A DNA stretch of 30,412 nt from Tepidisphaerales bacterium (GCA_038238625.1 JBBSFP010000001.1:1-30412), one strand, 5' to 3'. Counted from the first letter of the stretch, positions 2,965-17,086 are shown. The notes: a model not told the origin generated them from the letters alone. A program made the numbers and translations.

Positions 2965-4218
2965 ATGCGATATTTTGAAGAGGAGATTGCGTGGGTTGGC
3001 TCCCAGCAGCTACGAATGGAGCGTTTAGTCGAGCAGTGGTGTCTGCTTAATTCAGGCACATATCACACCGCCGGGGTGGAACGTTGTGCCCAGGCTGTTA
3101 TCCAGGAATTCGCGGCTTTAGGCAAAATCCATCGTCTCCCCCTCCCGGCTGAGGAGTCGATTGATGTGCTCGGGAGGACCATTTCAGCACCGCTGTGCCC
3201 AGCAGTGCAGATCACTGCATCAGATGTCGTGGCATCCGATATACCGAGGGTATTGTTATGTATCCATCTAGACACGGTGTTTGGTGAAAACAGTGCGTTT
3301 CAGCATGTACAGCGGGTTGAGGGGGACAAGTTCAACGGCCCAGGTGTAGCCGACGCCAAGGGGGGAATCGTGGTGATGTTGCTTGCTTTGGAATGCCTGA
3401 TGCGCAGCCGATACGCAAAGGGAATTGCCTGGGAGGTGCTGCTCAATACCGATGAAGAAATTGGGTCGGTTGGATCGTTGCCATTGTTGCAGGAGGCCGC
3501 ACGGCGAAATGATGTGGGCCTGCTATTTGAGCCTGCGTGGCCGGATGGAATGCTTACGGGGCAGCGCAAGGGTTCGGGGAATTTTTCGGTGGTCATCACC
3601 GGCCGCTCAGCCCATGCCGGGCGCGATTCGGCAAGCGGGCGAAATGCCATGCATGCAGCGGCGCGCTTCATCGTGGCGCTTAATAATTATGCAGAGCGCC
3701 TGCCGGGGACTATTGTAAATGTCGGTCGCATCGAAGGTGGCGGTCCATCAAATATCGTCCCGGACCTGGCGATTGTGCGCTTCAATGTGCGTGTTGAAAC
3801 GGCGCAGCAACAACACCTGATGGAACACGGCATCAACTGGCTGGTTGGAGAAACGAATCGGCAAGAGGGTTTTGGAATGCGACTGCATGGCTGCTTCACT
3901 TCGCCACCGCGCTTGATGGAGGGGGCCACGCTAGACCTGTTCGATCAAGTAGCCACCTGCGGAAAAGAGCTTGGAATGGTAACAGGCTGGCGCGCCTCTG
4001 GTGGTGTAAGTGATGGCAACAAGCTCGCCGCCGCGGGGCTGCCTAATGTAGACACGCTGGGCGTTTGTGGCGGCAACCTTCACACGTCGCAGGAATACAT
4101 GCTGATTAGTAGCCTCAGCGAGCGCGCCAAGCTCTCGGCGCTGTTCCTGCTTAAGCTGGCCAGTGGGCAAATACCGTGGCCCAATCGCGCCATCCCCTCC
4201 TGCGAGGCGATCGCATGA
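2965..4218 (+). CDS. M20 family amidohydrolase (carboxypeptidase G2-like), probable desuccinylase of the AST pathway
   Basis: M20 motifs HLDTVF, GPGVADAKGG, DEEIGS, FEP, GRSAHAG, GGVSDGN, GGNLHT; ATGA overlap with astA. Confidence 0.85.
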   Translation: MRYFEEEIAWVGSQQLRMERLVEQWCLLNSGTYHTAGVERCAQAVIQEFAALGKIHRLPLPAEESIDVLGRTISAPLCPAVQITASDVVASDIPRVLLCIHLDTVFGENSAFQHVQRVEGDKFNGPGVADAKGGIVVMLLALECLMRSRYAKGIAWEVLLNTDEEIGSVGSLPLLQEAARRNDVGLLFEPAWPDGMLTGQRKGSGNFSVVITGRSAHAGRDSASGRNAMHAAARFIVALNNYAERLPGTIVNVGRIEGGGPSNIVPDLAIVRFNVRVETAQQQHLMEHGINWLVGETNRQEGFGMRLHGCFTSPPRLMEGATLDLFDQVATCGKELGMVTGWRASGGVSDGNKLAAAGLPNVDTLGVCGGNLHTSQEYMLISSLSERAKLSALFLLKLASGQIPWPNRAIPSCEAIA

Positions 4219-5312
4219 TCATCATGCGCCCCGCAGCCACGGACGATCTTCTGCCATTGCTGGAGCTCACCCGCCTTACCGGTTTTGGTTTGACGACTCT
4301 GCCCACGGATCGCGAGCTGTTGCGAAAGCGAATTGCCAAATCGACACGCTCCTTTTCAAACATCCCCGATCAGCCTGGCGATGAAAACTATTTGCTGGTG
4401 ATGGAAGATACGAAAAGAAAACAAGTTGTGGGGACTGCTGGAATCATTGCAAAGGTGGGCGGATTTGAGCCTTTTTACGCCTATCGGATCGTACCGACGG
4501 TGCATGAGTCTACTTTTTTGAAAGTGCGCAAAGAAATTCGCACGCTGCACCTGGTTTCAGAACACAACGGGCCATCGGAAGTATGCAGTTTGTTTTTGGC
4601 ACCGGACGCACGAGGGGGGCAGAACGGACGTCTCCTGTCACTTTCACGCTTCATGTTCATGGCGGAAAATCCACGTGCGTTTGAGGCGAATGTCATCGCC
4701 GAAATGCGTGGGATTATTGATGATCAGGGACGCTCGCCATTCTGGGATGCGATTGGTAAGCATTTTTTTGAAATCGATTTCCCCACCGCTGATTACCTGA
4801 GTCTTGTAAACAGGCGATTTATTGCAGACCTGATGCCACGCCATCCAATCTATACGACCCTGCTACCCCCAGAAGCTCAGGCGGTCATTGGGCAGGTGCA
4901 TCAGCAAAGTGTACCGGCCCTGAAGCTATTGGAGAGTGAAGGCTTTCGCTTTACCGGAATGCTCGACATCTTTGAGGGCGGCCCGATCGTAAGTTGCCCG
5001 CTCGAGCAGGTGCGAACGATACGCGGCAGCCGCAGGGCGACCGTTGTTGACGTAAGCCACGAACCGCTGGCGACGGAAATCTGTGTAATGGCCGCGGGCA
5101 GTATGGATTTTCGGGCATGCCGTGGGGAGGTCGAAATCGTGGCAAGCGGCGTACGCATTAGCGCGGAGTGCGCGAAAGCGTTGCGGCTGGGGATTGGTGA
5201 TTCTCTGCGTTTTGCGCCTTTGAGAGCGCCTATTCCGCACGATTTGCAGGAGGCGCCGGGATCGGACGAAACGCCCAACGCTAACGATCCAATGATTGCC
5301 GATCGTTCATGA
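4215..5312 (+). CDS. astA: Arginine N-succinyltransferase
   Basis: MIIMRPA..., GLTTLP, GPSEVCSLFL, GRLLSLSRFMF, AEMRG, SPFWDAIG, DIFEGGP. Start placed at ATG 4215, overlapping the upstream TGA, not at the ORF-track start 4176. Confidence 0.95.
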   Translation: MIIMRPAATDDLLPLLELTRLTGFGLTTLPTDRELLRKRIAKSTRSFSNIPDQPGDENYLLVMEDTKRKQVVGTAGIIAKVGGFEPFYAYRIVPTVHESTFLKVRKEIRTLHLVSEHNGPSEVCSLFLAPDARGGQNGRLLSLSRFMFMAENPRAFEANVIAEMRGIIDDQGRSPFWDAIGKHFFEIDFPTADYLSLVNRRFIADLMPRHPIYTTLLPPEAQAVIGQVHQQSVPALKLLESEGFRFTGMLDIFEGGPIVSCPLEQVRTIRGSRRATVVDVSHEPLATEICVMAAGSMDFRACRGEVEIVASGVRISAECAKALRLGIGDSLRFAPLRAPIPHDLQEAPGSDETPNANDPMIADRS

Positions 5313-5372
5313 TCGAATACCCGGTCAAGTTCCCGGTAAATCCATGCTCAGAATCCACCCCACGGGAGATCG

Positions 5373-6830
5373 ATGAGTCATTTTATAAATAACGCCTGGA
5401 TCGAAGGGACGGGCACGCCCTTTTGCTCAACTAACCCAGCAACGGGGCAGCCGGTGTTTGAAACTCGCGCGGGAACATCCGACGAGATAGATCGCGCCAT
5501 TGCCGCAGCGAGATCGACCCTGCCGTCGTGGAGCTCGCTGGCGTTCGATCAGCGGGTCGTCCACGTTGAGGCATTCACCAGGGAACTCAAAGAGCACGGT
5601 CAGCAGCTCTCTGAAGCCATCAGTCTTGAAACGGGTAAACCCCACTGGGAAGCAGCCGAGGAACTCGCGGCAATGGTCAACAAGGCCCCGATTTCTATCA
5701 CGGCGTATCGGCAGCGGCGGCAGGAAACCTCTGCAGCGCTCCCCAATGGTTCCACCGCCGAAACGCGATTTAAACCTCACGGGGTGGTCGCGGTATTTGG
5801 GCCGTTCAATTTCCCAGGTCATTTGCCCAATGGGCACATCATACCGGCGTTGCTGGCAGGCAACACCGTCGTCTTCAAGCCCAGTGAATACACACCGCTC
5901 GTAGGCCGGCGCATGGCGGAATTGTGGGAAGCAAGCCGGCTGCCATCCGGCGTGGTTAACGTGGTGCAGGGGGGCCGTCAGACGGGTGTTACGCTTGCGC
6001 AACACCCGGGCATTGACGGTATTTTCTTCACCGGAAGCGTCAATGCCGGGCTGTCACTTCACCGCGCCGTCGCAGGGCAGCCGCAGAAAATCCTCGCACT
6101 GGAGCTCGGTGGCAACAATCCACTGATCGCCTGGGATTTTGATGATCTGGACGCTGCCGTCACAGTGATCGTGCTTTCGGCATTCCTGACTTCCGGTCAG
6201 CGTTGTACTTGCGCGCGCCGATTAATTGTCCCGACTGGGGCCGATGCGCTGTTGAATCGGCTCCAAAGCGTCGCCAGCCAACTGATCCCCGGCCCCTTTA
6301 CACAGTCACCAGAACCGTTCATGGGACCTGTCATCTCCGCGTCGGCGGCGTTGCAGTTGCTCGATGCGCAGGAACGTCTGCAACATAATGGCGGGCAGTC
6401 AATGCTCTCCATGAAGCAACTTCACGGAAGCCCCGCAATGCTCACGCCCGGAATCATGGATGTGACCAGCGTCATCGACCGGCCCGATATCGAGCTGTTT
6501 GGTCCGTTTTTACAGGTGATACGGGTAAACGATTTTGAGCACGCGCTGGCAGAAGCCAATAGCACTTCCTACGGGCTGGCAGCGGGATTAATCAGCAACG
6601 ATCGCGCTCGTTTCGAGCAATTTTTTGCCCAAATCCGCGCGGGCGTCGTTAGCTGGAATCGCCCCACGACGGGTGCCAGTGGATCATTGCCTTTCGGCGG
6701 TTTGGGCCAAAGCGGCAATCATCGCCCCAGCGGTTATTACGCGGTCGATTATTGTTCTGATCCGGTTGCAATTTTGCAGTCACCCAGGGTCGGCCCCCTA
6801 GGATCGCTGCCGCCGGGATTCATCCTTTAA
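5373..6830 (+). CDS. astD: Succinylglutamate-semialdehyde dehydrogenase
   Basis: ALDH motifs FGPFNFPGHLPNGH, FKPSE, FTGS, LALELGGNNP, SGQRCTCARR, ELFGP, GNHRPSGYYAVDYC; GGGAG SD before the ATG; lies between astA and astB. Confidence 0.93.
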   Translation: MSHFINNAWIEGTGTPFCSTNPATGQPVFETRAGTSDEIDRAIAAARSTLPSWSSLAFDQRVVHVEAFTRELKEHGQQLSEAISLETGKPHWEAAEELAAMVNKAPISITAYRQRRQETSAALPNGSTAETRFKPHGVVAVFGPFNFPGHLPNGHIIPALLAGNTVVFKPSEYTPLVGRRMAELWEASRLPSGVVNVVQGGRQTGVTLAQHPGIDGIFFTGSVNAGLSLHRAVAGQPQKILALELGGNNPLIAWDFDDLDAAVTVIVLSAFLTSGQRCTCARRLIVPTGADALLNRLQSVASQLIPGPFTQSPEPFMGPVISASAALQLLDAQERLQHNGGQSMLSMKQLHGSPAMLTPGIMDVTSVIDRPDIELFGPFLQVIRVNDFEHALAEANSTSYGLAAGLISNDRARFEQFFAQIRAGVVSWNRPTTGASGSLPFGGLGQSGNHRPSGYYAVDYCSDPVAILQSPRVGPLGSLPPGFIL

Positions 6831-6870
6831 AACAAGCGCTGCGTATTTCGGTACGCTCCAGTGGCAGATT

Positions 6871-8217
6871 ATGATCGTGCCCATGCGCGCCAAGGAATGG
6901 AATCTCGACGGTTTGCCCGGTCCCACGCACAACTATGCTGGTTTGTCCTACGGAAACCTGGCATCGACGCGTTCACGGGGCAGCATTTCACATCCGCGCG
7001 CCGCTGCACTTGAGGGATTGGCGAAAATGAAGCTCGTGGCGGACCTGGGAATTCCACAGGCAATCCTCCCGCCACAAATTCGGCCGGATCTGGCAATGCT
7101 GCGGGCGCTGGGTTTCGAAGGATCTGAAAAAGAAATTGTGCTCAACGCGCACCGGGCAGACCCGGCGCTGCTGACTTCTTGCTACAGCAGCAGCGCCATG
7201 TGGGCAGCGAACGCGGCGACGGTATCCCCCAGTTCTGATGCCGCCGATAGAAAACCGCACATCACCCCTGCCAACCTGGTCAGCCGATTCCATCGTTCGC
7301 TTGAGGCAACGCAAACGGCTGCCCAGTTGCGCTCGATTTTTGATCCAGAGACCGGTTTTGCGCACCATGCAGCGCTTACATGTTCGCCCTTGCTGGCGGA
7401 TGAGGGGGCCGCAAACCACACCCGACTTTGCGCGGCATTTGACCAGCCGGGAGTGCAGCTATTCGTTTATGGGCGCGATGGGTTCGATGATGAAAGCGAA
7501 GCCAGCGCCCCCCCCCCAACCCGCTACCCGGCGCGGCATACCCTTCAGGCATCGCAAGCGATCGCGCGTTTGCACAAGCTCGACCCAAATGCCGTCGTGT
7601 TTGCTCGCCAAAGCGCCATAGCAATCGATGCCGGCGTCTTCCACAACGATGTGATCGCCGTCGGAAACCAAAATGTATTACTGTACCACGCGCAGGCGTT
7701 TGTAGAAGAGGATCGGGTCATCGGACAATTGCAGCAGTGTTTCCAACGCATCTGCGGACAAAAATTAATCCTGCTGCGCATCGATTCAGCGGAAATGTCG
7801 CTGGCGGCTGCGGTCAAGACTTACTTCTTCAACAGCCAGTTGCTGACATTGCCCAACGGCATGATGACGCTGATCGCACCGATCGAATGCCAGGAAGATA
7901 TCATCGCACAGACGACCATCGGGCGTCTGCTGTTTAGCGGCGGGCCAATCAAATCGGTTCACTACGTGGATCTTCGACAGAGTATGCAAAACGGTGGTGG
8001 GCCGGCTTGCCTGCGGTTGCGAATGGTGTTGACCGAACGGGAACAGTCGGCCATGCACCCAGGTGTGATTTTCAATGAAGCTTTATACGGAAAATTGGTG
8101 CCCTGGGTGAACAGTTTTTATCGAAATCAGCTGTCGCCAGACGATTTATCAGATCCCCGCTTGCTGGTGGAATCGCGTGAAGCACACTCCTCGCTGCAGC
8201 GGATATTGTGGGGATGA
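6871..8217 (+). CDS. astB: N-succinylarginine dihydrolase (alternative start 6883)
   Basis: DGLPGPTHNYAGLSYGNLAS, MWAANAATVSPS, DEGAANH, GVFHNDVIAV, YFFNSQL, SMQNGGGPACLRLR. Confidence 0.96.
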   Translation: MIVPMRAKEWNLDGLPGPTHNYAGLSYGNLASTRSRGSISHPRAAALEGLAKMKLVADLGIPQAILPPQIRPDLAMLRALGFEGSEKEIVLNAHRADPALLTSCYSSSAMWAANAATVSPSSDAADRKPHITPANLVSRFHRSLEATQTAAQLRSIFDPETGFAHHAALTCSPLLADEGAANHTRLCAAFDQPGVQLFVYGRDGFDDESEASAPPPTRYPARHTLQASQAIARLHKLDPNAVVFARQSAIAIDAGVFHNDVIAVGNQNVLLYHAQAFVEEDRVIGQLQQCFQRICGQKLILLRIDSAEMSLAAAVKTYFFNSQLLTLPNGMMTLIAPIECQEDIIAQTTIGRLLFSGGPIKSVHYVDLRQSMQNGGGPACLRLRMVLTEREQSAMHPGVIFNEALYGKLVPWVNSFYRNQLSPDDLSDPRLLVESREAHSSLQRILWG

Positions 8218-8369
8218 CGGTCGTCATTTTTACGGCCGGCACATGATCCCGGATGTCGCGCACAGATTTCCCAAACCCACCTCAATACTATCAGTTGTTA
8301 ACGGTTCTTGCGGTTGCCTGCCTTTTGCTTGAGGTGGAAAACCGTTAAATTGTCAAACCGGAGGATTCA

Positions 8370-9611
8370 ATGCCTGAAGCTGTTTACCTGGTCGGTTCCG
8401 GTCGCACGGATTTTAAGCGTAACTTGAAAAAAGAAGGGCTGTCCCTTCGGGATGTGATTGCCGAAGCCGGCAAGGCCGCCCTGAGCGATGCCGGACTGCA
8501 GCCCAGCGACGTGCAGTCAGGCGTGGTGGGAAACTTTGCAGCCGGGTTGTTCACCAGGCAGTTGCATGTGGGCGCCCTGATGTTGAACATCGATTCGGCC
8601 CTCCAGGGCATTCCAACGATTCATACCGAGGCCGCTTGCGCTTCCGGAAGCGTCGCCGTAATTACCGCGATTCACCAGATAATGGCAGGGGCATACGACG
8701 TGGTATTGGTGGTGGGTGCCGAACAGCAAAAAACCATGTCACCTTCTGAAGGGTCCGACGTGCTGGGGGGTGCCGGCGATTTTGCCCATGAGAAGCCGAT
8801 CTATGGCGAGTTTATGTTTCCCAAACTTTTCGGCCGCATCGCACAGCTTTATCGTGAGCGTTATGGCGTAACCGATGAGCAGCTTTCGCAGGTCGCGGTA
8901 AAAAACCGGGCGCATGCGCAGCTGAATCCGCTGGCACAAACGCGCGGCAGCAAGCTGACGTTGAACGATGCGCTGACCGTATCCGACCAAAACGTTTGCA
9001 TCGCCGCTCCACTGAAAATTACGGATTGTTCTCAGATTACGGATGGCGCGGCGGCAGTGGTGTTGGTATCTGAACGCTTTGTCAAGAAGATGGCGCAGAA
9101 GCGACCCTTGGTGAAATTGGCGGGCTTCGGGCACGCGACCGATTTCCTGGCTCTGGATCAGAAAGATGTGCCGGAGTTTCCGTGCGGAAGAAAGTCAACA
9201 ACCGCTGCATATACCATGGCTAACCTGACACCCACACAGATTGATGGGGCTGAGGTTCATGATTGCTTTAGCATCTCTGAAATTGTTGCCTACGAACTGC
9301 TTGGCTTGGCCGAGCGCGGACAGGGCCCAGCGCTGGTAGCCAGCGGCGCTACTGCCCTGCCGAGCGTACGCCAACAACTCGGCGGGAGTGCCGGCAGCCC
9401 AGGGCGATCAATCCCAGTCAACACCGGTGGCGGTTTGATAGGTGATGGGCACCCCGTGGGTGCCACCGGGGTGCGGCAAGTCGTTGAAGCCTATCAGCAG
9501 CTCACCGAAGCCGCCGGCGAACGACAGGTTGCCAATGCCCGGCGATACTTTACTTACAACATGGGTGGCAGCATGACCACCTGCGTCAGCATGATCTGGC
9601 AGCGCAACTAA
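8370..9611 (+). CDS. Thiolase, SCP2-type (acetyl-CoA C-acyltransferase family)
   Basis: EAACASG (catalytic Cys), EVHDCFS, GGLIGDGHPVGATG, CSQITDGAAAVVL; GGAGG SD upstream. Confidence 0.9.
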   Translation: MPEAVYLVGSGRTDFKRNLKKEGLSLRDVIAEAGKAALSDAGLQPSDVQSGVVGNFAAGLFTRQLHVGALMLNIDSALQGIPTIHTEAACASGSVAVITAIHQIMAGAYDVVLVVGAEQQKTMSPSEGSDVLGGAGDFAHEKPIYGEFMFPKLFGRIAQLYRERYGVTDEQLSQVAVKNRAHAQLNPLAQTRGSKLTLNDALTVSDQNVCIAAPLKITDCSQITDGAAAVVLVSERFVKKMAQKRPLVKLAGFGHATDFLALDQKDVPEFPCGRKSTTAAYTMANLTPTQIDGAEVHDCFSISEIVAYELLGLAERGQGPALVASGATALPSVRQQLGGSAGSPGRSIPVNTGGGLIGDGHPVGATGVRQVVEAYQQLTEAAGERQVANARRYFTYNMGGSMTTCVSMIWQRN

Positions 9612-9657
9612 TCACCTCATGGCTCCCGTTGACGACCGGTCGAACGAAGGACTTGTA

Positions 9658-10908
9658 ATGGAAAACGCACAACGGGAAAAAATGAGCCCCGAACCAGACG
9701 GTGTCCGCGTGCTGACAGCAGTCCCTATCTGTGACGGACATGACAGCGCAATCAACACCGTCAACCTCGAATTCATCCATCACGGCATTGAGGTGATTTA
9801 CCTCGGTTATCATCGGCCGGTTGAAGAAATTGTCCGCGCCGCCATCCAGGAAGACGTACGGGCTGTCGGCATTTCCAGCTACAACGGGGGACATGTGGAA
9901 TTTTTTGCCCGCGTCGTGGAGGGGCTCCGCCAACAGGGTGCCGCTGATATCAGCGTATTCGGTGGCGGGGGCGGCACCATCACCGAGCAGGATGCCGTCC
10001 AGATGCGTGCTGCAGGCGTGGAACAAATTTTCTTCGCCGGTACACCGCTCAAAGCCCTGACCGAATACGTGCATCAGCATTACAAACCACCCGCTGTCGA
10101 CGCGGCTGGTCGAAATCGCGACCACACCGCTTCGCACGATCGCCAATTAGCACGCCTGCTAAGCGATGCAATCGCATCACCCCAACGTGGCAACGGAAAA
10201 GCCAGACCCATCGCCGATGGGCATAAGTCGCTGGTTATCGGCATTACCGGTCCGGGGGGTGCGGGAAAGACCACGCTCATCGACGAGTTGGTGCTCCGCT
10301 GCCTGACGACTTCGCCCACCGCTCGAATCGCTATTCTCTCTCATGATCCCAGCATCGTGGGTAAAGGTGCCTTGCTGGGCGACCGGGCAGCGATGATCTA
10401 TTCCCAAAACGACCGCGTATTCATGCGCAGCCTTGCCACGCGCGGACAAACCGGTGGAATTTCCGCCGGTACCGAACAATGCCTTGAATTGCTCAAATCA
10501 GTTGATGTCCCCGGCGGCGCATTTGATGTGATCTTTGTAGAAACCGTCGGGATTGGGCAGGAAGCCATGCCCTTTACTAAGGCGGTGGTGGATCAGACGC
10601 TGCTGGTCATGAGCCCCGATTACGGCAGCCGATTGCAACTGCAAAAGATTGTGATGCTTGATCTGGCAGATGTGGTGGTGATCAACAAGTCTGATCTTGC
10701 CGGCGCTAAGACAGCCGCTTCGGAAGTCAGTCATCGCATTGCCACACCAGAGCAGGCCCGCAAAATAATTTCCACTGTCGCCAAACGACATCGCGACACC
10801 GGCGTCAATGAGTTGTTTGATTATCTGATTGCTGGTCATTTGCAGAAATTGCAACCTGCTGCTGTCGATTCCGACAAATCGCTGAAGCCCATCTCCAACC
10901 AGGCATGA
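9658..10908 (+). CDS. Cobalamin-binding domain fused to a MeaB-type GTPase (N-terminal half of an IcmF-like mutase); alternative start 9619
   Basis: DGHDSAIN (DxH B12 motif), SSYNGGHVEFF, VFGGGGGTI, GITGPGGAGKTT, RSLATRG, ETVGIGQ, NKSD; GAAGGA SD 6 nt before ATG 9658. Confidence 0.9.
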   Translation: MENAQREKMSPEPDGVRVLTAVPICDGHDSAINTVNLEFIHHGIEVIYLGYHRPVEEIVRAAIQEDVRAVGISSYNGGHVEFFARVVEGLRQQGAADISVFGGGGGTITEQDAVQMRAAGVEQIFFAGTPLKALTEYVHQHYKPPAVDAAGRNRDHTASHDRQLARLLSDAIASPQRGNGKARPIADGHKSLVIGITGPGGAGKTTLIDELVLRCLTTSPTARIAILSHDPSIVGKGALLGDRAAMIYSQNDRVFMRSLATRGQTGGISAGTEQCLELLKSVDVPGGAFDVIFVETVGIGQEAMPFTKAVVDQTLLVMSPDYGSRLQLQKIVMLDLADVVVINKSDLAGAKTAASEVSHRIATPEQARKIISTVAKRHRDTGVNELFDYLIAGHLQKLQPAAVDSDKSLKPISNQA

Positions 10909-10912
10909 ACCT

Positions 10913-12679
10913 ATGAACACGCTCGCCAGCACCCTTACATCCGTTGCCGCCTCAGTTGAGGAATATGACCAGTTCGTTACCGGGCAGGTGGAGCGCGCGC
11001 GCAGCGATGAGGGGTTTGCGCACAAAACCCGGGAAAAGTGGGAATCGATTAAAAGTGCCATCCCCATGACCACCACGCCAACGGGAATCAAGCTACCGCG
11101 GCTGGCGCTCCCGCAGGTGGACGAGCCGGGAGAAATGGCGCGCTACCTCTATAGCGAGGGACTACCAGGCGAATTTCCCTATGTAAATGGCATCTATCGC
11201 GAAATGTACCTCGCCAAAGACCTTGGCGAAGTGGTAGCCGAAGAGCCGACCCGTCTTTTTGCGGGTCTGGGATTGGCCGAAGACACCAACGCCCGCTTCC
11301 ACTATCTGACCCGGCAACAGCGCAGCCTTCGCCTGAGCACCGCCTTTGATGGACCCACTCTCTACGGCGTGGACAGCGATACCCCCGGCGTACTGGGCAA
11401 GATCGGCGAGGGGGGTGTTGCCATCGACACTATTGACGATATGGAACGGCTCTACGAGGGATTCCCGTTCGGCGATAGTAACTTCTCGGTGTCCATGACC
11501 ATGAACGGTCCAGCACCGATCATCCTGGCGATGTACGTCTCCGCCGCGCGGCGCAAGTACGGTAAAGAGATCATCCCCAAGCTGCGCGGAACCATCCAGG
11601 CTGACATCCTCAAAGAAGTGCAGGCACAGAATGAAATGATCTTTCCGGTCGATGCATCATTGCGGTTCCTGGGGGACATGGTGGAGTATGCCACCGAATT
11701 TATGCCGCGCTGGTACCCGATTTCCATCAGCGGTTATCACATAGCCGAAGCGGGCGCGACCCCTGTACAGCAGGCTGCCTACACCCTCTCAAACGGGTTC
11801 ACCTATGTGCAGCTTTTTAAAGAGCGCGGCATGGATGTAAACGTGTTTGGCCCGCGGCTCTCGTTTTTCCTCGACGGTGGGCTCGACGTGGAATATTACG
11901 CCCTGGCGTCGGTGTGCCGGCGCATCTGGGCCATCGGAATGCGCGATGTGTTCGGCGCAAGCCCCAAAGCGCAGATGTTCAAGCTGCACATCCAAACCAG
12001 CGGCCGCTCGCTCATCGCCCACGAGTTCCAGAACAATCTAACCCGTACCGCCATCGAACTCATGATGGCGTACAACAATCACACCAACTCCTGCCACTCC
12101 AACAGTGCCGATGAGCCGTTTACCACGCCCAGCGAGCAATATGTGCGTCTCGCCGCCCATGCGCAGGCCATCATGCTCGAAGAGAGCGGCCTCTTTAAAC
12201 ACATGATGAACACCACCAGCGGATCGCCGGGGATGAAAATCATCGAGAAGGCCGTGCAGGATGCGATCATCGAAGAGTTCCGCGAGATTGATCGGCTGGG
12301 TGGAGTGCTGTCGGCCATTGAGCACCGCTACCAGCGCAGCCAAATTCAAAATGCCGCGCATCGCTACGAGCAACAGATTTACGCTGGTGTAAGGCCGATC
12401 ATTGCCCTCAACCGTTACGCCGCCATGGGCGAGGGAACATCAGACCTGCCGGTGGTACGTACGGACCCAGCCAAGCAGCATCAGCAAGTCGGACGGCTGG
12501 CGGAATTTAAAAAGCGACACGCCCCCCATGCCCAAAAGGCGCTCGATGAGCTCACGCGCGTGGTAGAAACCGGCGGTAATGTCTTCGCGCAGCTGATCGA
12601 AACTGTCGAACATTGCTCGCTCGGCCAAATCATCGACCGCCTCAGCGCGATCGTCGGTCGTTTCCGTCCAACCGTCTAA
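10913..12679 (+). CDS. Acyl-CoA mutase substrate-binding subunit, IcmF / isobutyryl-CoA mutase type
   Basis: PGEFPYVNG, EEPTRLFAG, RLSTAFDGPTLYG, GTIQADILKEVQAQN, SISGYHIAEAGA, RLSFF, HIQTSGRSL; Phe/Gln rather than Tyr/Arg at the specificity positions. Confidence 0.9.
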   Translation: MNTLASTLTSVAASVEEYDQFVTGQVERARSDEGFAHKTREKWESIKSAIPMTTTPTGIKLPRLALPQVDEPGEMARYLYSEGLPGEFPYVNGIYREMYLAKDLGEVVAEEPTRLFAGLGLAEDTNARFHYLTRQQRSLRLSTAFDGPTLYGVDSDTPGVLGKIGEGGVAIDTIDDMERLYEGFPFGDSNFSVSMTMNGPAPIILAMYVSAARRKYGKEIIPKLRGTIQADILKEVQAQNEMIFPVDASLRFLGDMVEYATEFMPRWYPISISGYHIAEAGATPVQQAAYTLSNGFTYVQLFKERGMDVNVFGPRLSFFLDGGLDVEYYALASVCRRIWAIGMRDVFGASPKAQMFKLHIQTSGRSLIAHEFQNNLTRTAIELMMAYNNHTNSCHSNSADEPFTTPSEQYVRLAAHAQAIMLEESGLFKHMMNTTSGSPGMKIIEKAVQDAIIEEFREIDRLGGVLSAIEHRYQRSQIQNAAHRYEQQIYAGVRPIIALNRYAAMGEGTSDLPVVRTDPAKQHQQVGRLAEFKKRHAPHAQKALDELTRVVETGGNVFAQLIETVEHCSLGQIIDRLSAIVGRFRPTV

Positions 12680-12720
12680 GATCATCCGGCGTCGGCAACG
12701 TCGAATACCCAAGGCTCCGC

Positions 12721-14175
12721 ATGACCCCCACCGTCGTTACCGGTACCCCAACTGCCGCGCAGCAGCGTGTCGCGCATCCCCTGGCCGACCGTTTGGCCGC
12801 CTACACCCACTCCCTGAAGTTCGAGGACCTGCCCAAGGCAGTCGTGCATGAAGTGAAGCGGCGCGTGATCGATTCCATTGGCTGCGCCCTGGGTTCGTGG
12901 ACGGCCGAGCCGTGCGTGATTGCACGAAAGGTAGCTTCTGAACTCAGCGCCCAGCACGGTGCTACTTTGTGGGGAACCGATCACCGCGCACCTCTGGATT
13001 GGGCCGCATTTGCCAACGGTTTGCTGGTGCGCTATCTGGATTACAACGATACCTATTTGTCGAAAGAACCCGCCCATCCCAGCGACAATATTCCCGCCGC
13101 CATCGCTGTGGCGGAGGCATACAGGGTTAATGGGCGCGAGCTGATCACCGCCATTGCCCTTGCGTATGAAGTCCAGTGCCGCTTTTGTGATGCCGTGAGC
13201 CTGCGGGCACGCGGCTGGGATCATGTGACCTACGGCGCTTTTTCCACCGCCGTGGCGGCGTCCCGTTTGATGAAACTGGATGTCGCAGGCACTCGTCATG
13301 CTATCGGCATCGCCGGTGTCACAAGCGCTGCGTTGCGGCAGTCGCGCGTCGGTGAACTTTCCCACTGGAAAGGTGCCGCTTTTGCCAATTCGGCTCGACA
13401 TGGCGTGTATGCCGCAATGCTGGCGCGCGAAGGCATGACCGGTCCGGCCCCCATCTTTGAAGGCGAGAAGGGGTTTGAAAAACTGGTCAGCGGTGCCGCG
13501 ATGGAAGTCGCCGGTCCATTTGCGCTGCAGTCATCCGACCAAAAACTCCCGCCGCGCGCTCCCGAAGATGGGTTCATGATCCTCAAGACGCTCATCAAAT
13601 TCTGGCCGGCTGAATACCATGCCCAGAGCGCGGTGGAAGCGGCGATGCGCCTTCGGCCTAAGCTTGACGGGGCCGAGAATATCGAAACCGTCATCATCGA
13701 AAGCCACGATGCGGCCGTGGATATCATTGGCAGCGAATCTGAAAAATGGCGGCCCACCCATCGTGAAACCGCCGATCACAGCCTGCCTTACATGGTGGGT
13801 GTGGCGCTGGTGGATGGGGAATTAACTCAGCGGCAGTTCACGCATGAACGTTTGTCGGATGAAAAACTCCTGAGCTTTTTGCAGCGGGTCGAAGTTCGCC
13901 GCAATGCAGAGCTAACCGCCCTCTATCCCGACGCCGTCGCCAACAAGGTCACCATTAAACTCAAAGGCGGTCGCAGCATCAGCGAGCGCATAGATTACCC
14001 GAAGGGGCACGCTAAAAACGCTTTGTCTGATGGTGAGGTGGAAGCCAAATTTCATGCGCAGGCTGATGAAGTCCTAGGAGCGCAGCGCTCCGATGCCGTT
14101 CTCAAATGGGCATGGCAACTTGAGGAAACCGCTAATCCGGCCGATTTGTTGACGCTTCTGAAGATACAAGGTTAA
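12721..14175 (+). CDS. prpD: 2-methylcitrate dehydratase (MmgE/PrpD family)
   Basis: VRYLDYNDTYLSKEPAHPSDN, GWDHVT, RVGELSHWKG, AEYHAQSA, ETADHSLPY. Start placed at ATG 12721 because the ORF-track start 12613 overlaps the mutase. Confidence 0.92.
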   Translation: MTPTVVTGTPTAAQQRVAHPLADRLAAYTHSLKFEDLPKAVVHEVKRRVIDSIGCALGSWTAEPCVIARKVASELSAQHGATLWGTDHRAPLDWAAFANGLLVRYLDYNDTYLSKEPAHPSDNIPAAIAVAEAYRVNGRELITAIALAYEVQCRFCDAVSLRARGWDHVTYGAFSTAVAASRLMKLDVAGTRHAIGIAGVTSAALRQSRVGELSHWKGAAFANSARHGVYAAMLAREGMTGPAPIFEGEKGFEKLVSGAAMEVAGPFALQSSDQKLPPRAPEDGFMILKTLIKFWPAEYHAQSAVEAAMRLRPKLDGAENIETVIIESHDAAVDIIGSESEKWRPTHRETADHSLPYMVGVALVDGELTQRQFTHERLSDEKLLSFLQRVEVRRNAELTALYPDAVANKVTIKLKGGRSISERIDYPKGHAKNALSDGEVEAKFHAQADEVLGAQRSDAVLKWAWQLEETANPADLLTLLKIQG

Positions 14176-14180
14176 AGTTC

Positions 14181-15044
14181 GTGGCACCTATCGAATTGCA
14201 CAGCAAACCCGCACGCCTGCGCCAGCTTCTCGAAGCGGGTTGCGTTGCCATGCCGGGCGCATTCAATGGCGCTTCGGCTCGGCTGGTGCAGCGTGCCGGA
14301 TTCGATGCCGTTTACATCTCCGGCGCGGGCTTAGCCAACGCCACAGCGGGTCTGCCTGACATCGGCCTGCTGACGCTCAGTGAGGTGACATTGCTGGCAC
14401 GGTTTGCCGCGTCGGCGGTTGATATCCCGGCGATTGTAGATGCTGATACCGGGTTCGGGGGCCCCGAAAACGCTGCCCGCACCGTGCGGGATCTCACCCA
14501 TGCCGGGCTGGCGGGATGTCATATTGAAGATCAGGAATTCCCCAAGCGCTGTGGGCATCTGGGAGGAAAGACGCTGGTTTCGACCGAGGATATGTGCGCC
14601 AAGCTGCGCGCTGCAGCCACGGCCAAGCCCGACCGGGATTTTCTGCTGATCGCGCGAACTGATGCCCGCGCCGTGGAGGGATTCGACGCCGCCGTGGCCC
14701 GTGCCCATGCATACCTGCACGCAGGGGCCGATGCAATTTTTCCCGAGGCCCTGCAAACCGCCGAAGAATTTTTCGCCTTCGCCAAGGCAATATCAGCGCC
14801 GTTGCTGGCGAACATGACTGAATTTGGCCGTAGCCCGCTGTTGAGCGTCAGTCAACTGGCGGAAATGGGCTACCGGATGGTGATTTTTCCGCAAACCGCT
14901 TTCCGTGTCAGCATGCGTGCAGCGGATGAATTACTTAAAGACCTGCGAATCGCCGGCACGCAGGAACAGTGGCTCAGCCGCATGCAGACGCGGCAGGACT
15001 TGTACAATCTACTGGGATACGATCCCACGATGAATTCCCGCTGA
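14181..15044 (+). CDS. prpB: Methylisocitrate lyase
   Basis: YISGAG, DADTGFG, HIEDQEFPKRCGHLGGK, IARTDA, ADAIFPEAL, LLANMTEFG; GTG start 5 nt after prpD. Confidence 0.93.
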   Translation: MAPIELHSKPARLRQLLEAGCVAMPGAFNGASARLVQRAGFDAVYISGAGLANATAGLPDIGLLTLSEVTLLARFAASAVDIPAIVDADTGFGGPENAARTVRDLTHAGLAGCHIEDQEFPKRCGHLGGKTLVSTEDMCAKLRAAATAKPDRDFLLIARTDARAVEGFDAAVARAHAYLHAGADAIFPEALQTAEEFFAFAKAISAPLLANMTEFGRSPLLSVSQLAEMGYRMVIFPQTAFRVSMRAADELLKDLRIAGTQEQWLSRMQTRQDLYNLLGYDPTMNSR

Positions 15045-15124
15045 CGCTTGCCAATTCGCATAAGAATCGCTCAAATGCCCAGCCCTCTCGTGGTGCGAGA
15101 ACTCAACAACTTTGAGGAGTGTTT

Positions 15125-16291
15125 ATGACGCAGGCATCCCCCACCGCTACCAAAACCGGCGATAACGCGACCGGTAATAAACCCAACTTTAGCCCTGGCT
15201 TGGCCGGGGTGATTGCCGGGGAATCCAGTATTTGCCTGGTCGATCCGGATCGCGGGCTCTTTTATCGCGGGTATGACGCCGGTGAATTAGCGACCAAATC
15301 CAATTTCGAGGAAGTGGCTTGGCTACTGATTCACGACGACCTGCCGACCGCTGCCGAATATGAAAAATTCAAATCTGAGTTAGCCACTGAGAGTAAGCTG
15401 CCTGGCCCGGTGGTGCAGGCCCTGCGACTGATGCCGCGCAACATGCATCCGATGGACATGCTGCGCACGGGTGTTTCGATGCTGGCGGCGTTTGATTCTG
15501 ACCTGAACGACGTGTCCCATGCCGCCAACGTGCGTAAGGCGGTTCGGCTGATCGCGCGTGTAGGCACGCTGGTGACCGATGGCTGGCGTATCCAGCAAGG
15601 GCAGGAACCGTTCACGCCCGCCAGCAAGATGGACTTCGCATCGCGCTTTCTGTTTGGCCTGACCGGACGTGAGCCGGAGCCATGGCGCGCCGCGGCCATT
15701 AATACGGTGTTGATCCTTTACGCCGAGCATGAATTCAACGCTTCCACATTCGCCGCGCGCGTGACTGCGTCCAGTCTCGCCGACATGTATGCCGGTATTA
15801 CCAGCGGGATTGGCACGCTCAAAGGCCCGTTGCACGGCGGAGCCAACGAAGAAGCGATGGCGATGCTCAACGACATCAAAGATGCCAGCCGCGCTGAATC
15901 CTGGGTGAAAGAGCGCCTGGTCCGCAAAGACAAAATCATGGGGTTTGGTCACCGCGTTTATAAGCAGGGTGATTCGCGCGTGCCCGCGATGCGGAATGTA
16001 TCGCGCGACCTGGCCACCCGCTTCAATCAGCCCGGGTTGGTGGATACCTGCATCGAGCTGGAAAAAATAATGGATCGAGAAAAAGGGCTGTGCGCCAACG
16101 TGGATCTTTACGCGGCACCGCTTTTCCACCTCCTGCAGATCGCGCCGGAGCTCAATACACCCATTTTTGCCGCCGGTCGAGTGGCTGGTTGGTGCGCCCA
16201 TGTGATCGAGCAGCATGACAATAACCGCATCCTGCGGCCGCGCTGCTGGTACAACGGTTCCGAGCCACGCCCCTATCACAAACCGGCATGA
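15125..16291 (+). CDS. prpC: 2-methylcitrate synthase (citrate synthase family)
   Basis: GLAGVIAGES, LFYRGY, YAEHEFNASTF, LKGPLHGGANE, IMGFGHRVYK, NVDLY, RVAGWCAH; context with prpD/prpB; GAGGAG SD. Confidence 0.88.
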   Translation: MTQASPTATKTGDNATGNKPNFSPGLAGVIAGESSICLVDPDRGLFYRGYDAGELATKSNFEEVAWLLIHDDLPTAAEYEKFKSELATESKLPGPVVQALRLMPRNMHPMDMLRTGVSMLAAFDSDLNDVSHAANVRKAVRLIARVGTLVTDGWRIQQGQEPFTPASKMDFASRFLFGLTGREPEPWRAAAINTVLILYAEHEFNASTFAARVTASSLADMYAGITSGIGTLKGPLHGGANEEAMAMLNDIKDASRAESWVKERLVRKDKIMGFGHRVYKQGDSRVPAMRNVSRDLATRFNQPGLVDTCIELEKIMDREKGLCANVDLYAAPLFHLLQIAPELNTPIFAAGRVAGWCAHVIEQHDNNRILRPRCWYNGSEPRPYHKPA

Positions 16292-16330: not shown

Positions 16331-17086
16331 ATGTTCCGCCTCACGCGACAGGTGCGTTTTGCAGTGAACGGCCTCAATGTGCCGAGCCCCGATGATCACG
16401 TTAATGGATACGCGGGGTTCCCAACGTTGACCCCCTGGGGAATCTACCTTGGGCTTGATGTCACGCTTGCGGGAAACCTGGAATCGACAAGCGGGTACCT
16501 GCGCAATATCCGTGATGTGGACCAGGCGGTGCGGCACCGGGCGCTGCCGATTGTCCGCGAGCTCATTTCGATGAACGCATCGCCCGAAACCGTGCTGCGA
16601 AAACTATCCGATGAGCTGCGCCCCGCCTGGCCTATCGGCATGTTGCAGCACCTGCGACTGCACCTGAGCCCATTCATTCAACTTGGCCTGCAACTCTCGG
16701 AGCCGAGCATGATTCATCTCAGCCAGAAGTTCGAGTTTTCGGCCAGTCATCGGCTGCATAACCCCGCGCTCAGCGATGCGGAGAACCTGCGGGTATATGG
16801 CAAATGCAACAACTGCAACGGGCATGGGCATAATTACGAACTTCAGGTCACATTGGCCGGGCCGCTGAGCGAGTTGCCGATGTTCGAGCGTATCGTCGCC
16901 GAGACGGTTATTGATCGCTTCGATCACAAAAATCTGAACGTTGAGGTGCCAGAATTTCGAACGCTGATTCCATCCGTGGAGAACATTGCGCAGGTGATTT
17001 ATCGGCTTTTGAAACCGGCGCTGGTGGGGCTGACATCGGTCACGGTCTGGGAAACACCCAAGACCTGGTGCGAATATTCAGAGTAA
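16331..17086 (+). CDS. Two-domain 6-pyruvoyl-tetrahydropterin / 6-carboxytetrahydropterin synthase family protein (QueD-like T-fold)
   Basis: C-terminal half FSASHRL...KCNNCNGHGHNY...DHKNLN...PSVENIA...VWETP; the N-terminal half looks like a second, degenerate T-fold domain. Confidence 0.85.
   Translation: MFRLTRQVRFAVNGLNVPSPDDHVNGYAGFPTLTPWGIYLGLDVTLAGNLESTSGYLRNIRDVDQAVRHRALPIVRELISMNASPETVLRKLSDELRPAWPIGMLQHLRLHLSPFIQLGLQLSEPSMIHLSQKFEFSASHRLHNPALSDAENLRVYGKCNNCNGHGHNYELQVTLAGPLSELPMFERIVAETVIDRFDHKNLNVEVPEFRTLIPSVENIAQVIYRLLKPALVGLTSVTVWETPKTWCEYSE

What the first reader, a model, noticed from the sequence alone, without database searches (positions are those of the whole stretch)
8370..16291. 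Thiolase + IcmF-type mutase + methylcitrate cycle in one apparent operon: candidate branched-chain acyl-CoA pathway
Seen: six co-directional genes with gaps of about 4-80 nt. The mutase has Phe (RLFAG, 11258-11260) and Gln (AQN, 11627-11629) where methylmalonyl-CoA mutase has Tyr and Arg. Known: Phe/Gln marks mutases of uncharged acyl-CoAs (isobutyryl/n-butyryl, pivalyl/isovaleryl); PrpBCD consumes propionyl-CoA; n-butyryl-CoA oxidation yields no propionyl-CoA. Inference: the substrate may be a C5 or other branched acyl-CoA (for example 2-methylbutyryl/valeryl-CoA) whose thiolysis gives propionyl-CoA, or the mutase runs toward isobutyryl-CoA.
Basis: partly seen in the sequence, partly recalled or inferred. 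Interest (0 to 1): 0.6.

Follow-up and report, generated by a model that had tools for sequence, protein, structure and literature searches.

The report
Branched acyl-CoA breakdown operon, split B12 mutase
A soil-type planctomycete keeps a thiolase, a two-piece vitamin-B12 isobutyryl-CoA-type mutase and the three methylcitrate-cycle genes in one apparent operon. It most likely handles the short branched acyl-CoA leftovers of valine, isoleucine and branched fatty-acid breakdown. The chemistry is known; the enzyme layout and the gene grouping are undescribed.

Summary
Six co-directional genes (gaps 7, 4, 41, 5 and about 80 nt) encode an SCP2-type thiolase, a B12-domain/MeaB fusion, a mutase barrel with Phe116 and Gln239, a divergent PrpD-family protein, PrpB and PrpC.

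The mutase belongs to a large, coherent "split IcmF" clade. Members are 63-74% identical to each other, and the nearest fused IcmF is 46% identical. The clade occurs in Planctomycetota, Verrucomicrobiota and Acidobacteriota.

In 80 related loci the B12G-barrel pair is nearly constant. The thiolase is adjacent in 22. FadB, ACAD and ETF genes are common. prp genes lie within 10 kb in 12 loci, in at least four different arrangements.

The four PVC/Acidobacteriota genomes checked have no other acyl-CoA mutase and no isocitrate lyase. No 3-hydroxyisobutyryl-CoA hydrolase reached its cut-off in the five carrier genomes checked or in 61 family genomes.

[quoted passage not shown] This is a co-regulated set, not one linear pathway.

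The "toward isobutyryl-CoA" idea is disfavoured.

The scan has already noted similar split mutases on other DNA, some next to methylcitrate genes. I rate it a new variant of a known kind, of moderate interest.

The parts
8218..8369 (+). 152-nt leader between astB and the thiolase gene; GGAGG Shine-Dalgarno 6 nt before the ATG
   Evidence: Sequence. No Rfam family reaches its threshold. The RNA fold is no better than shuffles (z -0.04). The inverted repeats noted by another reader were not found in 90 related loci. No + strand terminator lies here, so read-through from the ast operon is possible.
8370..9611 (+). SCP2-type (archaeal/SCPx-like) thiolase, 413 aa
   Evidence: Pfam Thiolase_N and Thiolase_C_1; NF004936 376.5 bits against cut-off 375. 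Best solved relatives are the trypanosomatid SCP2-thiolases 4bi9 and 3zbg (E 1e-64). Cys90 in AACASG, the HDCF loop at 297 and GHPVGATG at 360 are present. Orthologues (57-65% identity) lie upstream of the mutase in 22 of 80 loci.
9619..10908 (+). Mutase small subunit: cobalamin-binding domain fused to a MeaB-type G-protein chaperone, 429 aa
   Evidence: Pfam B12-binding plus MeaB. It matches positions 3-395 of the IcmF model NF045497 (290 bits) and residues 45-433 of IcmF 4xc6 (E 5e-60). Motifs DGHD (39), GPGGAGKT (211), ETVGIGQ (308) and NKSD (356) are present. It is adjacent to the barrel gene in 66 of 80 loci.
10913..12679 (+). Mutase large subunit: substrate-binding TIM barrel of IcmF type, 588 aa, with Phe116 and Gln239
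   Evidence: PF01642 375.7 bits; NF045497 positions 501-1074, 532 bits. Best PDB match is IcmF 4xc6, E 5e-126. Phe116 and Gln239 are invariant in the family. It starts 4 nt after the B12G stop, in another frame. The nearest fused IcmF is 46% identical.
12721..14175 (+). Divergent MmgE/PrpD-family protein, inferred 2-methylcitrate dehydratase (ORF opens at TTG 12613; probable start ATG 12721)
   Evidence: Pfam MmgE_PrpD_N and _C. It scores below all PrpD equivalog cut-offs. It is equidistant from solved PrpD/MmgE (117 bits) and cis-aconitate decarboxylase (111 bits). It is the only family member found in G000, Fontivita, Chthoniobacter and a Bryobacterales MAG, always beside PrpB. The Fontivita and Chthoniobacter copies are 62% identical orthologues; the Bryobacterales copy is only about 30% identical to it.
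14181..15044 (+). PrpB, 2-methylisocitrate lyase
   Evidence: TIGR02317 383.7 bits, cut-off 354.4.
15125..16291 (+). PrpC, 2-methylcitrate synthase (ORF opens at GTG 15119; probable start ATG 15125 after GAGGAG)
   Evidence: TIGR01800 424.8 bits, cut-off 421.3; start. Related complete genomes hold two citrate-synthase paralogues, and this one is the copy in the prp cluster.

Best explanation
This is a catabolic operon for the short acyl-CoA end products of branched-chain amino acid and branched or odd-chain fatty acid breakdown. The host is a Tepidisphaeraceae-type planctomycete MAG with no methylmalonyl-CoA mutase detected and, as far as detectable, no canonical distal valine pathway. The two-gene 'split IcmF' is an AdoCbl-dependent isobutyryl-CoA mutase. 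One subunit carries the B12 domain and the G-protein chaperone; the other is the substrate barrel. It converts isobutyryl-CoA (from valine or iso-even fatty acids) into n-butyryl-CoA. Ordinary beta-oxidation (ACAD and FadB encoded elsewhere in this genome, adjacent in relatives) and the SCP2-type thiolase then yield acetyl-CoA. The same thiolase type can also cleave 2-methylacetoacetyl- or 3-oxovaleryl-CoA and so release propionyl-CoA. PrpC, the PrpD-like dehydratase, housekeeping aconitase and PrpB remove that propionyl-CoA by oxidising it to pyruvate. The genes sit together because they are needed under the same conditions, not because they form one linear pathway. Shown: gene identities, motifs, architecture, conservation and gene content. 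Inferred: substrate, direction, co-transcription and the physiological role.
For: The mutase equals IcmF at the aligned specificity positions: Phe116, Ala144, Gln229, Gln239 and Tyr275-His276. All cofactor and GTPase motifs are intact. A PduO-type adenosyltransferase is present in the genome.

The split pair is a real family, with thousands of homologues of 575-600 aa at 68-74% identity. 284 genome stretches matched, and B12G is adjacent in 66 of the best 80 loci. The family forms one clade (support 99) apart from fused IcmF.

The neighbours in related loci are beta-oxidation genes: orthologous thiolase in 22 of 80, FadB, VLCAD-like ACAD, ETF alpha and beta, an ETF-QO-like Fe-S protein and acyl-CoA ligases. 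Amino-acid catabolic genes also occur: 2-oxoacid dehydrogenase E1/E2, an amino-acid dehydrogenase, PutA and the AST operon.

In 61 genomes of the same family, every IcmF-like holder (10/10) has a FadB-type gene, against 10 of 51 non-holders (p 2e-6).

G000, Fontivita pretiosa (complete genome), Chthoniobacter flavus and a Bryobacterales MAG have this mutase as their only PF01642 protein, so no MCM was detected. They have no true isocitrate lyase. They have a BCKDH-like E1 and one long carboxyltransferase.

No HIBCH reached its cut-off in five carrier genomes or in 61 family genomes. No HIBADH reached its cut-off in five genomes.

prp genes lie within 10 kb in 12 of 80 loci, in at least four arrangements. 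This needs 10 state changes on the mutase tree, where chance predicts about 0.4% per genome.
Against: No biochemical data exist for any member of this clade.

Absence of HIBCH and HIBADH is judged by HMM cut-offs. G000 is only 79% complete.

G000 does have an MmsA (609 bits). It lies beside a class-III aminotransferase, which points to a beta-alanine/aminoisobutyrate role.

HIBCH was not found in any family genome, so its absence does not distinguish mutase holders from non-holders.

85 positions are conserved in the split clade but differ from fused IcmF. Some are in active-site motifs, so specificity could differ from IcmF.

Most family genomes with prp lack the mutase. In the nearest same-family relatives the thiolase-mutase module and prp lie on different contigs.
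Confidence: 0.55

Rival explanations
1. C5 'linearising' mutase. The split clade also, or mainly, converts 2-methylbutyryl-CoA (from isoleucine or anteiso fatty acids) to n-valeryl-CoA. Beta-oxidation and thiolysis of n-valeryl-CoA give acetyl-CoA plus propionyl-CoA, which feeds directly into the adjacent methylcitrate genes. This would make the six genes one pathway.
For: prp adjacency recurs in several phyla and arrangements. There is directly abutting mutase-PrpD-PrpB order in the window, L005 and L023. SCP2-type thiolases are known (my knowledge of SCPx) to handle 2-methyl-branched 3-oxoacyl-CoAs. The clade has its own conserved substitutions in active-site motifs, among them Ala399 where IcmF and HCM have Tyr and human MCM has Phe, and Leu119/Leu121 next to Phe116.
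Against: Phe116 and Gln239 and the other alignable determinants equal those of IcmF. No such activity is documented for any mutase in the literature I could reach. I could not show that the substituted positions line the acyl pocket. Co-occurrence with PrpB is not significant once beta-oxidation capacity is controlled. Both C5 isomers already yield propionyl-CoA without isomerisation.
Confidence: 0.17
2. Two independent operons happen to abut in this genome: thiolase-B12G-mutase and prpDBC. There is no functional or regulatory link.
For: In same-family genomes G009, G048 and G077 the thiolase-mutase module lies on a different contig from prp. In Fontivita the two are 2.6 Mb apart. Only 12 of 80 loci have prp nearby.
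Against: The expected chance adjacency is about 0.4% per genome; about 15% is observed, in at least four architectures and three phyla. The gap in the window is 41 nt with no terminator-like site.
Confidence: 0.15
3. The mutase runs from n-butyryl-CoA to isobutyryl-CoA, which is oxidised through the valine pathway to propionyl-CoA and then, through the methylcitrate cycle, to pyruvate. This would give a route from acetyl-/butyryl-CoA to C3 in organisms without a glyoxylate shunt.
For: No isocitrate lyase was found in G000, Fontivita, Chthoniobacter or the Bryobacterales MAG. The thiolase and a PhaB-like SDR lie beside the mutase in relatives. G000 has an MmsA. The idea of butyryl-CoA entering valine degradation through ICM was considered for Rhodospirillum rubrum and rejected there for lack of an ICM (PMC7238569).
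Against: The obligatory enzymes were not found above cut-off: HIBCH in 0 of 61 family genomes and in none of the five carrier genomes checked, and HIBADH in 0 of 5. MmsA is missing in Fontivita, Chthoniobacter and 8 of 10 family holders. The conserved partners are FadB, ACAD and ETF, that is, straight-chain oxidation.
Confidence: 0.05
4. Anabolic role: the mutase balances n-butyryl- and isobutyryl-CoA as primers for iso-even branched fatty acids or secondary metabolites, as ICM does in Streptomyces.
For: ICM has this role in Streptomyces (PMC2847961). From my own knowledge, many Verrucomicrobiota and Phycisphaerae are rich in iso and anteiso fatty acids.
Against: The neighbours are catabolic (FadB, ACAD, ETF, prp, AST, PutA). 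No fatty-acid or polyketide synthase genes were seen in the loci annotated.
Confidence: 0.05

Closest known systems
IcmF, fused isobutyryl-CoA mutase (Cupriavidus metallidurans, PDB 4xc6; NCBIfam NF045497)
   Same: The same three modules occur in the same order: B12 domain, MeaB-like G domain, substrate barrel. The Phe and Gln determinants, the DGHD cobalamin motif, the P-loop, switch II and NKxD are all present. It is the best PDB match for both subunits.
   Different: It is encoded as two genes, broken between the G domain and the barrel (4-nt gap, different frame). Identity to any fused IcmF is only 41-46%. The two parts sum to 822 bits against the family cut-off of 1500. 85 clade-specific conserved substitutions exist. 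The family forms a separate clade.
Two-subunit isobutyryl-CoA mutase IcmA/IcmB of Streptomyces cinnamonensis (EC 5.4.99.13)
   Same: The large and small subunits are separate, and the Phe/Gln type fits uncharged C4 acyl-CoA chemistry (literature summarised in PMC7238569 and PMC2847961).
   Different: Here the small subunit carries the G-protein chaperone in the same polypeptide. The sequences are nearer to IcmF than to other mutases. I had no IcmA/IcmB sequence to compare directly.
Methylcitrate cycle operon prpBCD(E) of Salmonella and E. coli
   Same: PrpB and PrpC pass their NCBIfam cut-offs. An MmgE/PrpD-family gene sits with them, and that trio is conserved in relatives.
   Different: The PrpD-family member is far from the characterised PrpD and MmgE (117 bits; below every equivalog cut-off). 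There is no prpE or prpR. The genes are fused into one transcription unit with a B12 mutase and a thiolase.
SCP2-thiolases (trypanosomatid type-2, PDB 4bi9 and 3zbg; mammalian SCPx)
   Same: The catalytic Cys, the HDCF loop and the GHP His are present. These are the best structural relatives by sequence.
   Different: It is bacterial and stand-alone, with no SCP2 domain and no DUF35 partner gene in the window. Its substrate is unknown.

Membership tests
IcmF (fused isobutyryl-CoA mutase/GTPase, NF045497) | Cobalamin-binding domain with the His-on DxH motif | tested here: met
   DGHD at residues 39-42 aligns with the DGHD of 4xc6.
IcmF (fused isobutyryl-CoA mutase/GTPase, NF045497) | MeaB-like G domain (P-loop, switch II, NKxD) | tested here: met
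   GPGGAGKT at 211, ETVGIGQ at 308, NKSD at 356; Pfam MeaB 124.9 bits.
IcmF (fused isobutyryl-CoA mutase/GTPase, NF045497) | Phe and Gln at the two specificity sites (Tyr and Arg in MCM) | tested here: met
   Phe116 and Gln239 by alignment to 4xc6, 4r3u and 8gju; invariant in 20 homologues.
IcmF (fused isobutyryl-CoA mutase/GTPase, NF045497) | All three modules in one polypeptide | tested here: not met
   There are two ORFs in different frames, 4 nt apart. The split is conserved in 66 of 80 loci. No fused protein exceeds 46% identity.
IcmF (fused isobutyryl-CoA mutase/GTPase, NF045497) | Score at or above the curated equivalog cut-off (1500 bits) | tested here: not met
   290 bits (B12G) plus 532 bits (barrel).
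IcmF (fused isobutyryl-CoA mutase/GTPase, NF045497) | Isobutyryl-/n-butyryl-CoA isomerase activity | not testable with these tools
   This needs an enzyme assay.
Methylmalonyl-CoA mutase | Tyr and Arg that bind the substrate carboxylate | tested here: not met
   Phe116 and Gln239 occupy these sites. The MCM equivalog NF006944 scores 363 bits against its cut-off of 876.
PrpB, 2-methylisocitrate lyase (TIGR02317) | Equivalog HMM cut-off | tested here: met
   383.7 bits against 354.4.
PrpC, 2-methylcitrate synthase (TIGR01800) | Subfamily HMM cut-off, and being the second citrate-synthase paralogue located in a prp cluster | tested here: met
   424.8 bits against 421.3. G001, G002, G004 and G009 hold two paralogues, and the orthologue of this one lies beside PrpB. 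A housekeeping copy was not found in the 79%-complete G000.
PrpD, 2-methylcitrate dehydratase (TIGR02330, NF006943, NF042438) | Equivalog HMM cut-off | tested here: not met
   145/458, 174/575 and 219/950 bits. It is as close to cis-aconitate decarboxylase as to PrpD in the PDB.
PrpD, 2-methylcitrate dehydratase (TIGR02330, NF006943, NF042438) | MmgE/PrpD two-domain fold and conserved linkage to prpB and prpC | tested here: met
   Both Pfam domains are present. It is the sole family member in four genomes and always lies next to PrpB.
SCP2-type thiolase | Nucleophilic Cys, HDCF-loop Cys and catalytic His | tested here: met
   AACASG (Cys90), HDCF (297-300) and GHPVGATG (360) align with 4bi9.

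The most novel reading that the evidence does not exclude
The split-IcmF clade may be a 'linearising' mutase with a widened acyl pocket (Ala399 in place of the Tyr/Phe of IcmF, HCM and MCM; Leu119 and Leu121 beside Phe116). Such an enzyme would turn 2-methylbutyryl-CoA into n-valeryl-CoA as well as isobutyryl-CoA into n-butyryl-CoA. In PVC bacteria and Acidobacteriota, plain beta-oxidation plus the methylcitrate cycle would then replace the dedicated valine and isoleucine distal pathways. That would be a new acyl-CoA mutase activity and a physiological role for the IcmF family.
Probability: 0.15. Interest if true: 0.7.

Novelty: new variant of a known kind. Interest (0 to 1): 0.42.

Why it matters
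To my knowledge, the physiological role of IcmF-type mutases has stayed unclear since their description. Here a large, uncharacterised sister clade with a different gene architecture is the only acyl-CoA mutase in many soil Planctomycetota, Verrucomicrobiota and Acidobacteriota. It is embedded in beta-oxidation and propionyl-CoA genes, in genomes where no MCM, no glyoxylate shunt and no recognisable distal valine pathway were detected. That gives a concrete hypothesis: B12-dependent straightening of branched acyl-CoAs. The hypothesis can be tested in cultivated carriers (Fontivita pretiosa, Chthoniobacter flavus). It would also correct the widespread 'methylmalonyl-CoA mutase' annotation of these genes (names), and it ties B12 availability to amino-acid turnover in these abundant soil phyla.

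Tried and rejected
- **Cobalamin riboswitch or other RNA element in the leader.** No Rfam hit appeared anywhere in the window. The leader fold is no better than shuffles. The interleaved repeats noted by another reader are not conserved in 90 loci.
- **Sigma-70 promoters and intrinsic terminators.** Counts are at or below shuffle level, so they say nothing for or against internal promoters.
- **Complementary distribution of the mutase and the canonical valine pathway within the family.** HIBCH is missing everywhere, and MmsA shows no relation to the mutase (2/10 against 16/51). The test does not discriminate.
- **A specific mutase-PrpB phyletic link.** It is significant on the raw counts (p 5e-4) but not within FadB-holders (p 0.17).
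- **Primary papers on IcmF and PCM specificity** (PMC4646380, PMC2804213, PMC3281689, PMC4345561). None is held, so statements on PCM and on pocket residues rest on my memory and are marked as such.
- **The look-up of encoding contigs.** I annotated neighbourhoods with my own ORF calls, clustering and Pfam/NCBIfam instead. The crude ORF caller gave some antisense shadow ORFs, which I recognised and set aside.
- **Active-site geometry of Ala399, Leu119 and Leu121.** No coordinates are available from the tools, so this was not evaluated.

Full report
**1. Observation**

The window is contig C1 of a 2.88-Mb, 485-contig, 79%-complete assembly. Six + strand genes occupy 8370-16291.

- 8370-9611: a thiolase with Pfam Thiolase_N/C_1. 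NF004936 scores 376.5 bits against a cut-off of 375.
- 9619-10908: a B12-binding domain fused to a MeaB GTPase.
- 10913-12679: an MM_CoA_mutase barrel.
- ORF from 12613 to 14175: an MmgE/PrpD protein.
- 14181-15044: PrpB (TIGR02317 383.7 bits, cut-off 354.4).
- ORF from 15119 to 16291: PrpC (TIGR01800 424.8 bits, cut-off 421.3).

The likely starts of the PrpD-like gene and of prpC are ATG 12721 and ATG 15125, the latter preceded by GAGGAG. The gaps are then 7, 4, 41, 5 and 80 nt. No + strand terminator-like site falls between genes, but the scan as a whole is at shuffle level.

Phe116 (11258-11260) and Gln239 (11627-11629) align with the Phe and Gln of IcmF 4xc6. At the same two sites HCM has Ile and Gln, and human MCM has Tyr and Arg. 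Both residues are invariant among 20 homologues.

There is one caveat. The 'PrpD' scores far below all three PrpD equivalog cut-offs. In the PDB it is as close to cis-aconitate decarboxylase as to PrpD/MmgE.

**2. The mutase is a split IcmF relative**

The small subunit matches positions 3-395 of the IcmF model, and the barrel matches positions 501-1074. Both have IcmF 4xc6 as their best solved relative. The cobalamin motif DGHD, the P-loop GPGGAGKT, switch II ETVGIGQ and NKSD are intact.

The break is not an assembly error:

- Thousands of database proteins of about 575-600 aa are 68-74% identical to the barrel.
- 284 genome stretches matched. In 66 of the best 80 loci a B12G gene lies beside the barrel gene.
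- No protein over 1030 aa exceeds 46% identity.
- In a FastTree phylogeny the split proteins form one clade (support 99) apart from five fused IcmFs.

Carriers are mostly Phycisphaerae/Tepidisphaeraceae, Verrucomicrobiota (Chthoniobacter flavus, Opitutaceae, Terrimicrobiaceae) and Bryobacterales. A few are Pirellulales and gammaproteobacterial MAGs. Phyla are interleaved in the tree, which suggests transfer.

G000 itself is probably a Tepidisphaeraceae. Its 'same family' genome G005 has a 119,155-base contig, the same length as the record behind L046, which is titled Tepidisphaeraceae.

**3. Neighbourhoods**

I ran tblastn with the window's proteins against the 80 loci.

- Orthologous thiolase (57-65% identity) lies upstream on the same strand in 22 loci.
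- prp genes lie within 10 kb in 12 loci, in several arrangements:
  - barrel-PrpD-PrpB(-PrpC) directly downstream (the window, L005, L008, L023, L070);
  - divergent PrpC-PrpB-PrpD next to B12G-barrel (L049);
  - Bryobacterales, with a carboxyltransferase, AtuA and a second thiolase in between (L048, L067, L078);
  - Opitutaceae, with prp 4-5 kb upstream (L064, L071, L076);
  - a lone PrpB homologue (49% identity) on the opposite strand about 6 kb upstream (L028).

On the mutase tree the 'prp nearby' label needs 10 changes for 12 labelled tips. The adjacency has therefore arisen or been lost many times. Chance predicts about 0.4% per genome (20 kb out of about 5 Mb).

Clustering and Pfam/NCBIfam annotation of other neighbours gave two groups.

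- Beta-oxidation genes: FadB-type hydratase/dehydrogenase, a VLCAD-like acyl-CoA dehydrogenase, ETF alpha and beta, an ETF-QO-like Fe-S protein, acyl-CoA ligases, a FabG/PhaB-like SDR (antisense), an enoyl-CoA hydratase, and a carboxyltransferase with AtuA.
- Amino-acid catabolic genes: a 2-oxoacid dehydrogenase E1/E2 set (L005), an amino-acid dehydrogenase (L049), PutA (L025) and the AST operon (L004, as in the window).

The full six-gene order was seen only in the window. L070 is nearly the same, with FadB added.

**4. Gene content**

The split mutase is the only PF01642 protein in G000, Fontivita pretiosa (complete genome), Chthoniobacter flavus and a Bryobacterales MAG. None of them has an MCM. 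The same four have:

- no true isocitrate lyase;
- one MmgE/PrpD gene, always beside PrpB;
- a BCKDH-like E1 and one long carboxyltransferase.

The three with near-complete assemblies hold two citrate-synthase paralogues, one of them in the prp cluster; only the prp copy was found in G000. G000, Fontivita and Chthoniobacter also carry a PduO-type adenosyltransferase; none was found in the Bryobacterales MAG.

HIBCH (NF004127) is over its cut-off in none of five carrier genomes and in 0 of 61 family genomes. It does register in the Caulobacter and Corynebacterium controls. HIBADH is over its cut-off in none of five genomes.

MmsA is present in G000, beside a class-III aminotransferase. It is absent from Fontivita and Chthoniobacter and shows no relation to the mutase in the family.

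**5. Phyletic pattern in 61 family genomes**

- Ten genomes have the IcmF-like mutase, four have an MCM-type mutase, and none has both.
- IcmF-like holders have FadB in 10 of 10, against 10 of 51 non-holders (p 2e-6).
- They have PrpB in 8 of 10, against 10 of 51 (p 5e-4).
- Among the 20 FadB-holders the PrpB contrast is 8/10 against 4/10 (p 0.17).

The mutase is thus tightly tied to beta-oxidation capacity. Most of its co-occurrence with prp is explained by that shared background.

Kin are not independent, so these p-values overstate. The tallies include genome G006, which is flagged as unpublished. It counts as a FadB-holder without mutase or PrpB, and no conclusion depends on it alone.

**6. 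Interpretation**

The conserved core is (FadB)-thiolase-B12G-barrel. These are the enzymes needed after a branched C4 acyl-CoA has been straightened. The canonical outlet for isobutyryl-CoA is not detectable, whereas a 2-oxoacid dehydrogenase that would make isobutyryl-CoA is present.

The most economical reading is therefore that isobutyryl-CoA goes to n-butyryl-CoA and then to two acetyl-CoA. Without MCM, the methylcitrate cycle is the only recognisable sink for propionyl-CoA from isoleucine and from odd or anteiso chains. The operon groups the terminal steps of branched-chain catabolism. The flanking AST, PutA and HglS-like genes fit an amino-acid catabolic island (earlier notes).

85 positions are conserved within the split clade but differ from fused IcmF. 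Several lie in active-site motifs, notably H-S-N-S-Ala399-D-E against H-T-N-A-Tyr-D-E in IcmF, with Tyr in HCM and Phe in human MCM. I could not test whether these residues touch the acyl group.

The 'toward isobutyryl-CoA' variant needs enzymes that were not found.

**7. Comparison and novelty**

The chemistry and all the protein families are known. Three things are not described in the literature I could search:

- the B12-G-protein fusion with a separate barrel, as a distinct widespread clade;
- that clade's role as the sole acyl-CoA mutase of many PVC bacteria and Acidobacteriota;
- its recurrent fusion into operons with prp genes.

Earlier notes of this scan report similar split mutases on other DNA, some next to methylcitrate genes. 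One follow-up reached the same valine-through-butyryl-CoA reading for a Verrucomicrobium. Those are unverified AI notes, and I reached my reading before seeing them. The two-specificity-site rule is cited second-hand from PMC7238569, because the primary papers were not held.

Verdict: a real, probably co-transcribed catabolic cluster; a new variant of a known kind; moderate interest.

Noticed in passing
window 16331-17086 (+): A PTPS/QueD-like gene with an N-terminal extension of about 125 aa lies 39 nt after prpC on the same strand. No homologue was found near the mutase in 80 related loci.
   Followed up: partly
window 2965-8217 and L004:1367-10479: M20-astA-astD-astB lies directly upstream of the mutase genes both in the window and in a Phycisphaerales MAG (L004, where the thiolase is missing). 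No + strand terminator-like site separates astB from the thiolase gene.
   Followed up: partly
window 12105-12107 (Ala399 of the barrel) and other sites: 85 positions are conserved in the split clade but differ from fused IcmF. They include Ala399 (Tyr in IcmF and HCM, Phe in human MCM), Leu119/Leu121, Gly147/Pro148, Val236 and Thr360, all within conserved active-site motifs.
   Followed up: partly
L022:4390-11713: In a gammaproteobacterial MAG chromosome, two rve-type integrase/transposase ORFs precede the B12G-barrel pair. That genome also has a canonical MCM and an isocitrate lyase. The pair looks horizontally acquired.
   Followed up: no
L026:8156-8902 (-), L005:7916-8671 (-) and at least 10 other loci: A FabG/PhaB-like short-chain dehydrogenase gene lies antisense between the thiolase and B12G genes, or just upstream of B12G. 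It is absent from the window.
   Followed up: partly
L067:11768-15041, L063:12121-16407, L071:11956-13584: In Bryobacterales and Opitutaceae the barrel gene is followed by an acyl-CoA carboxyltransferase (unassigned type; mmdA model 343 bits against cut-off 999). AtuA follows it in L067 and L063. After AtuA come a 110-aa ORF in L067 and an enoyl-CoA hydratase in L063. This hints at a leucine- or terpenoid-type branch.
   Followed up: partly
61 genomes of the window's family: IcmF-like (10 genomes) and MCM-type (4 genomes) mutases never co-occur, and 47 genomes have neither. B12-dependent acyl-CoA mutases are an accessory, patchy trait in this family.
   Followed up: yes
L046 / L087 (G005:C64): A same-family MAG has the barrel gene with no B12G gene within 10 kb. 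In L017, L035, L040 and L068 the two genes are several kb apart.
   Followed up: no
L020: A contig binned as 'uncultured Bifidobacterium sp.' carries a split mutase that is 71% identical to the window's and nests among Verrucomicrobiota. It is probably mis-binned.
   Followed up: no
window 8277-8348: The interleaved 9-bp inverted repeats in the leader, noted by another reader, are not conserved in related loci and do not fold better than shuffled sequence.
   Followed up: yes
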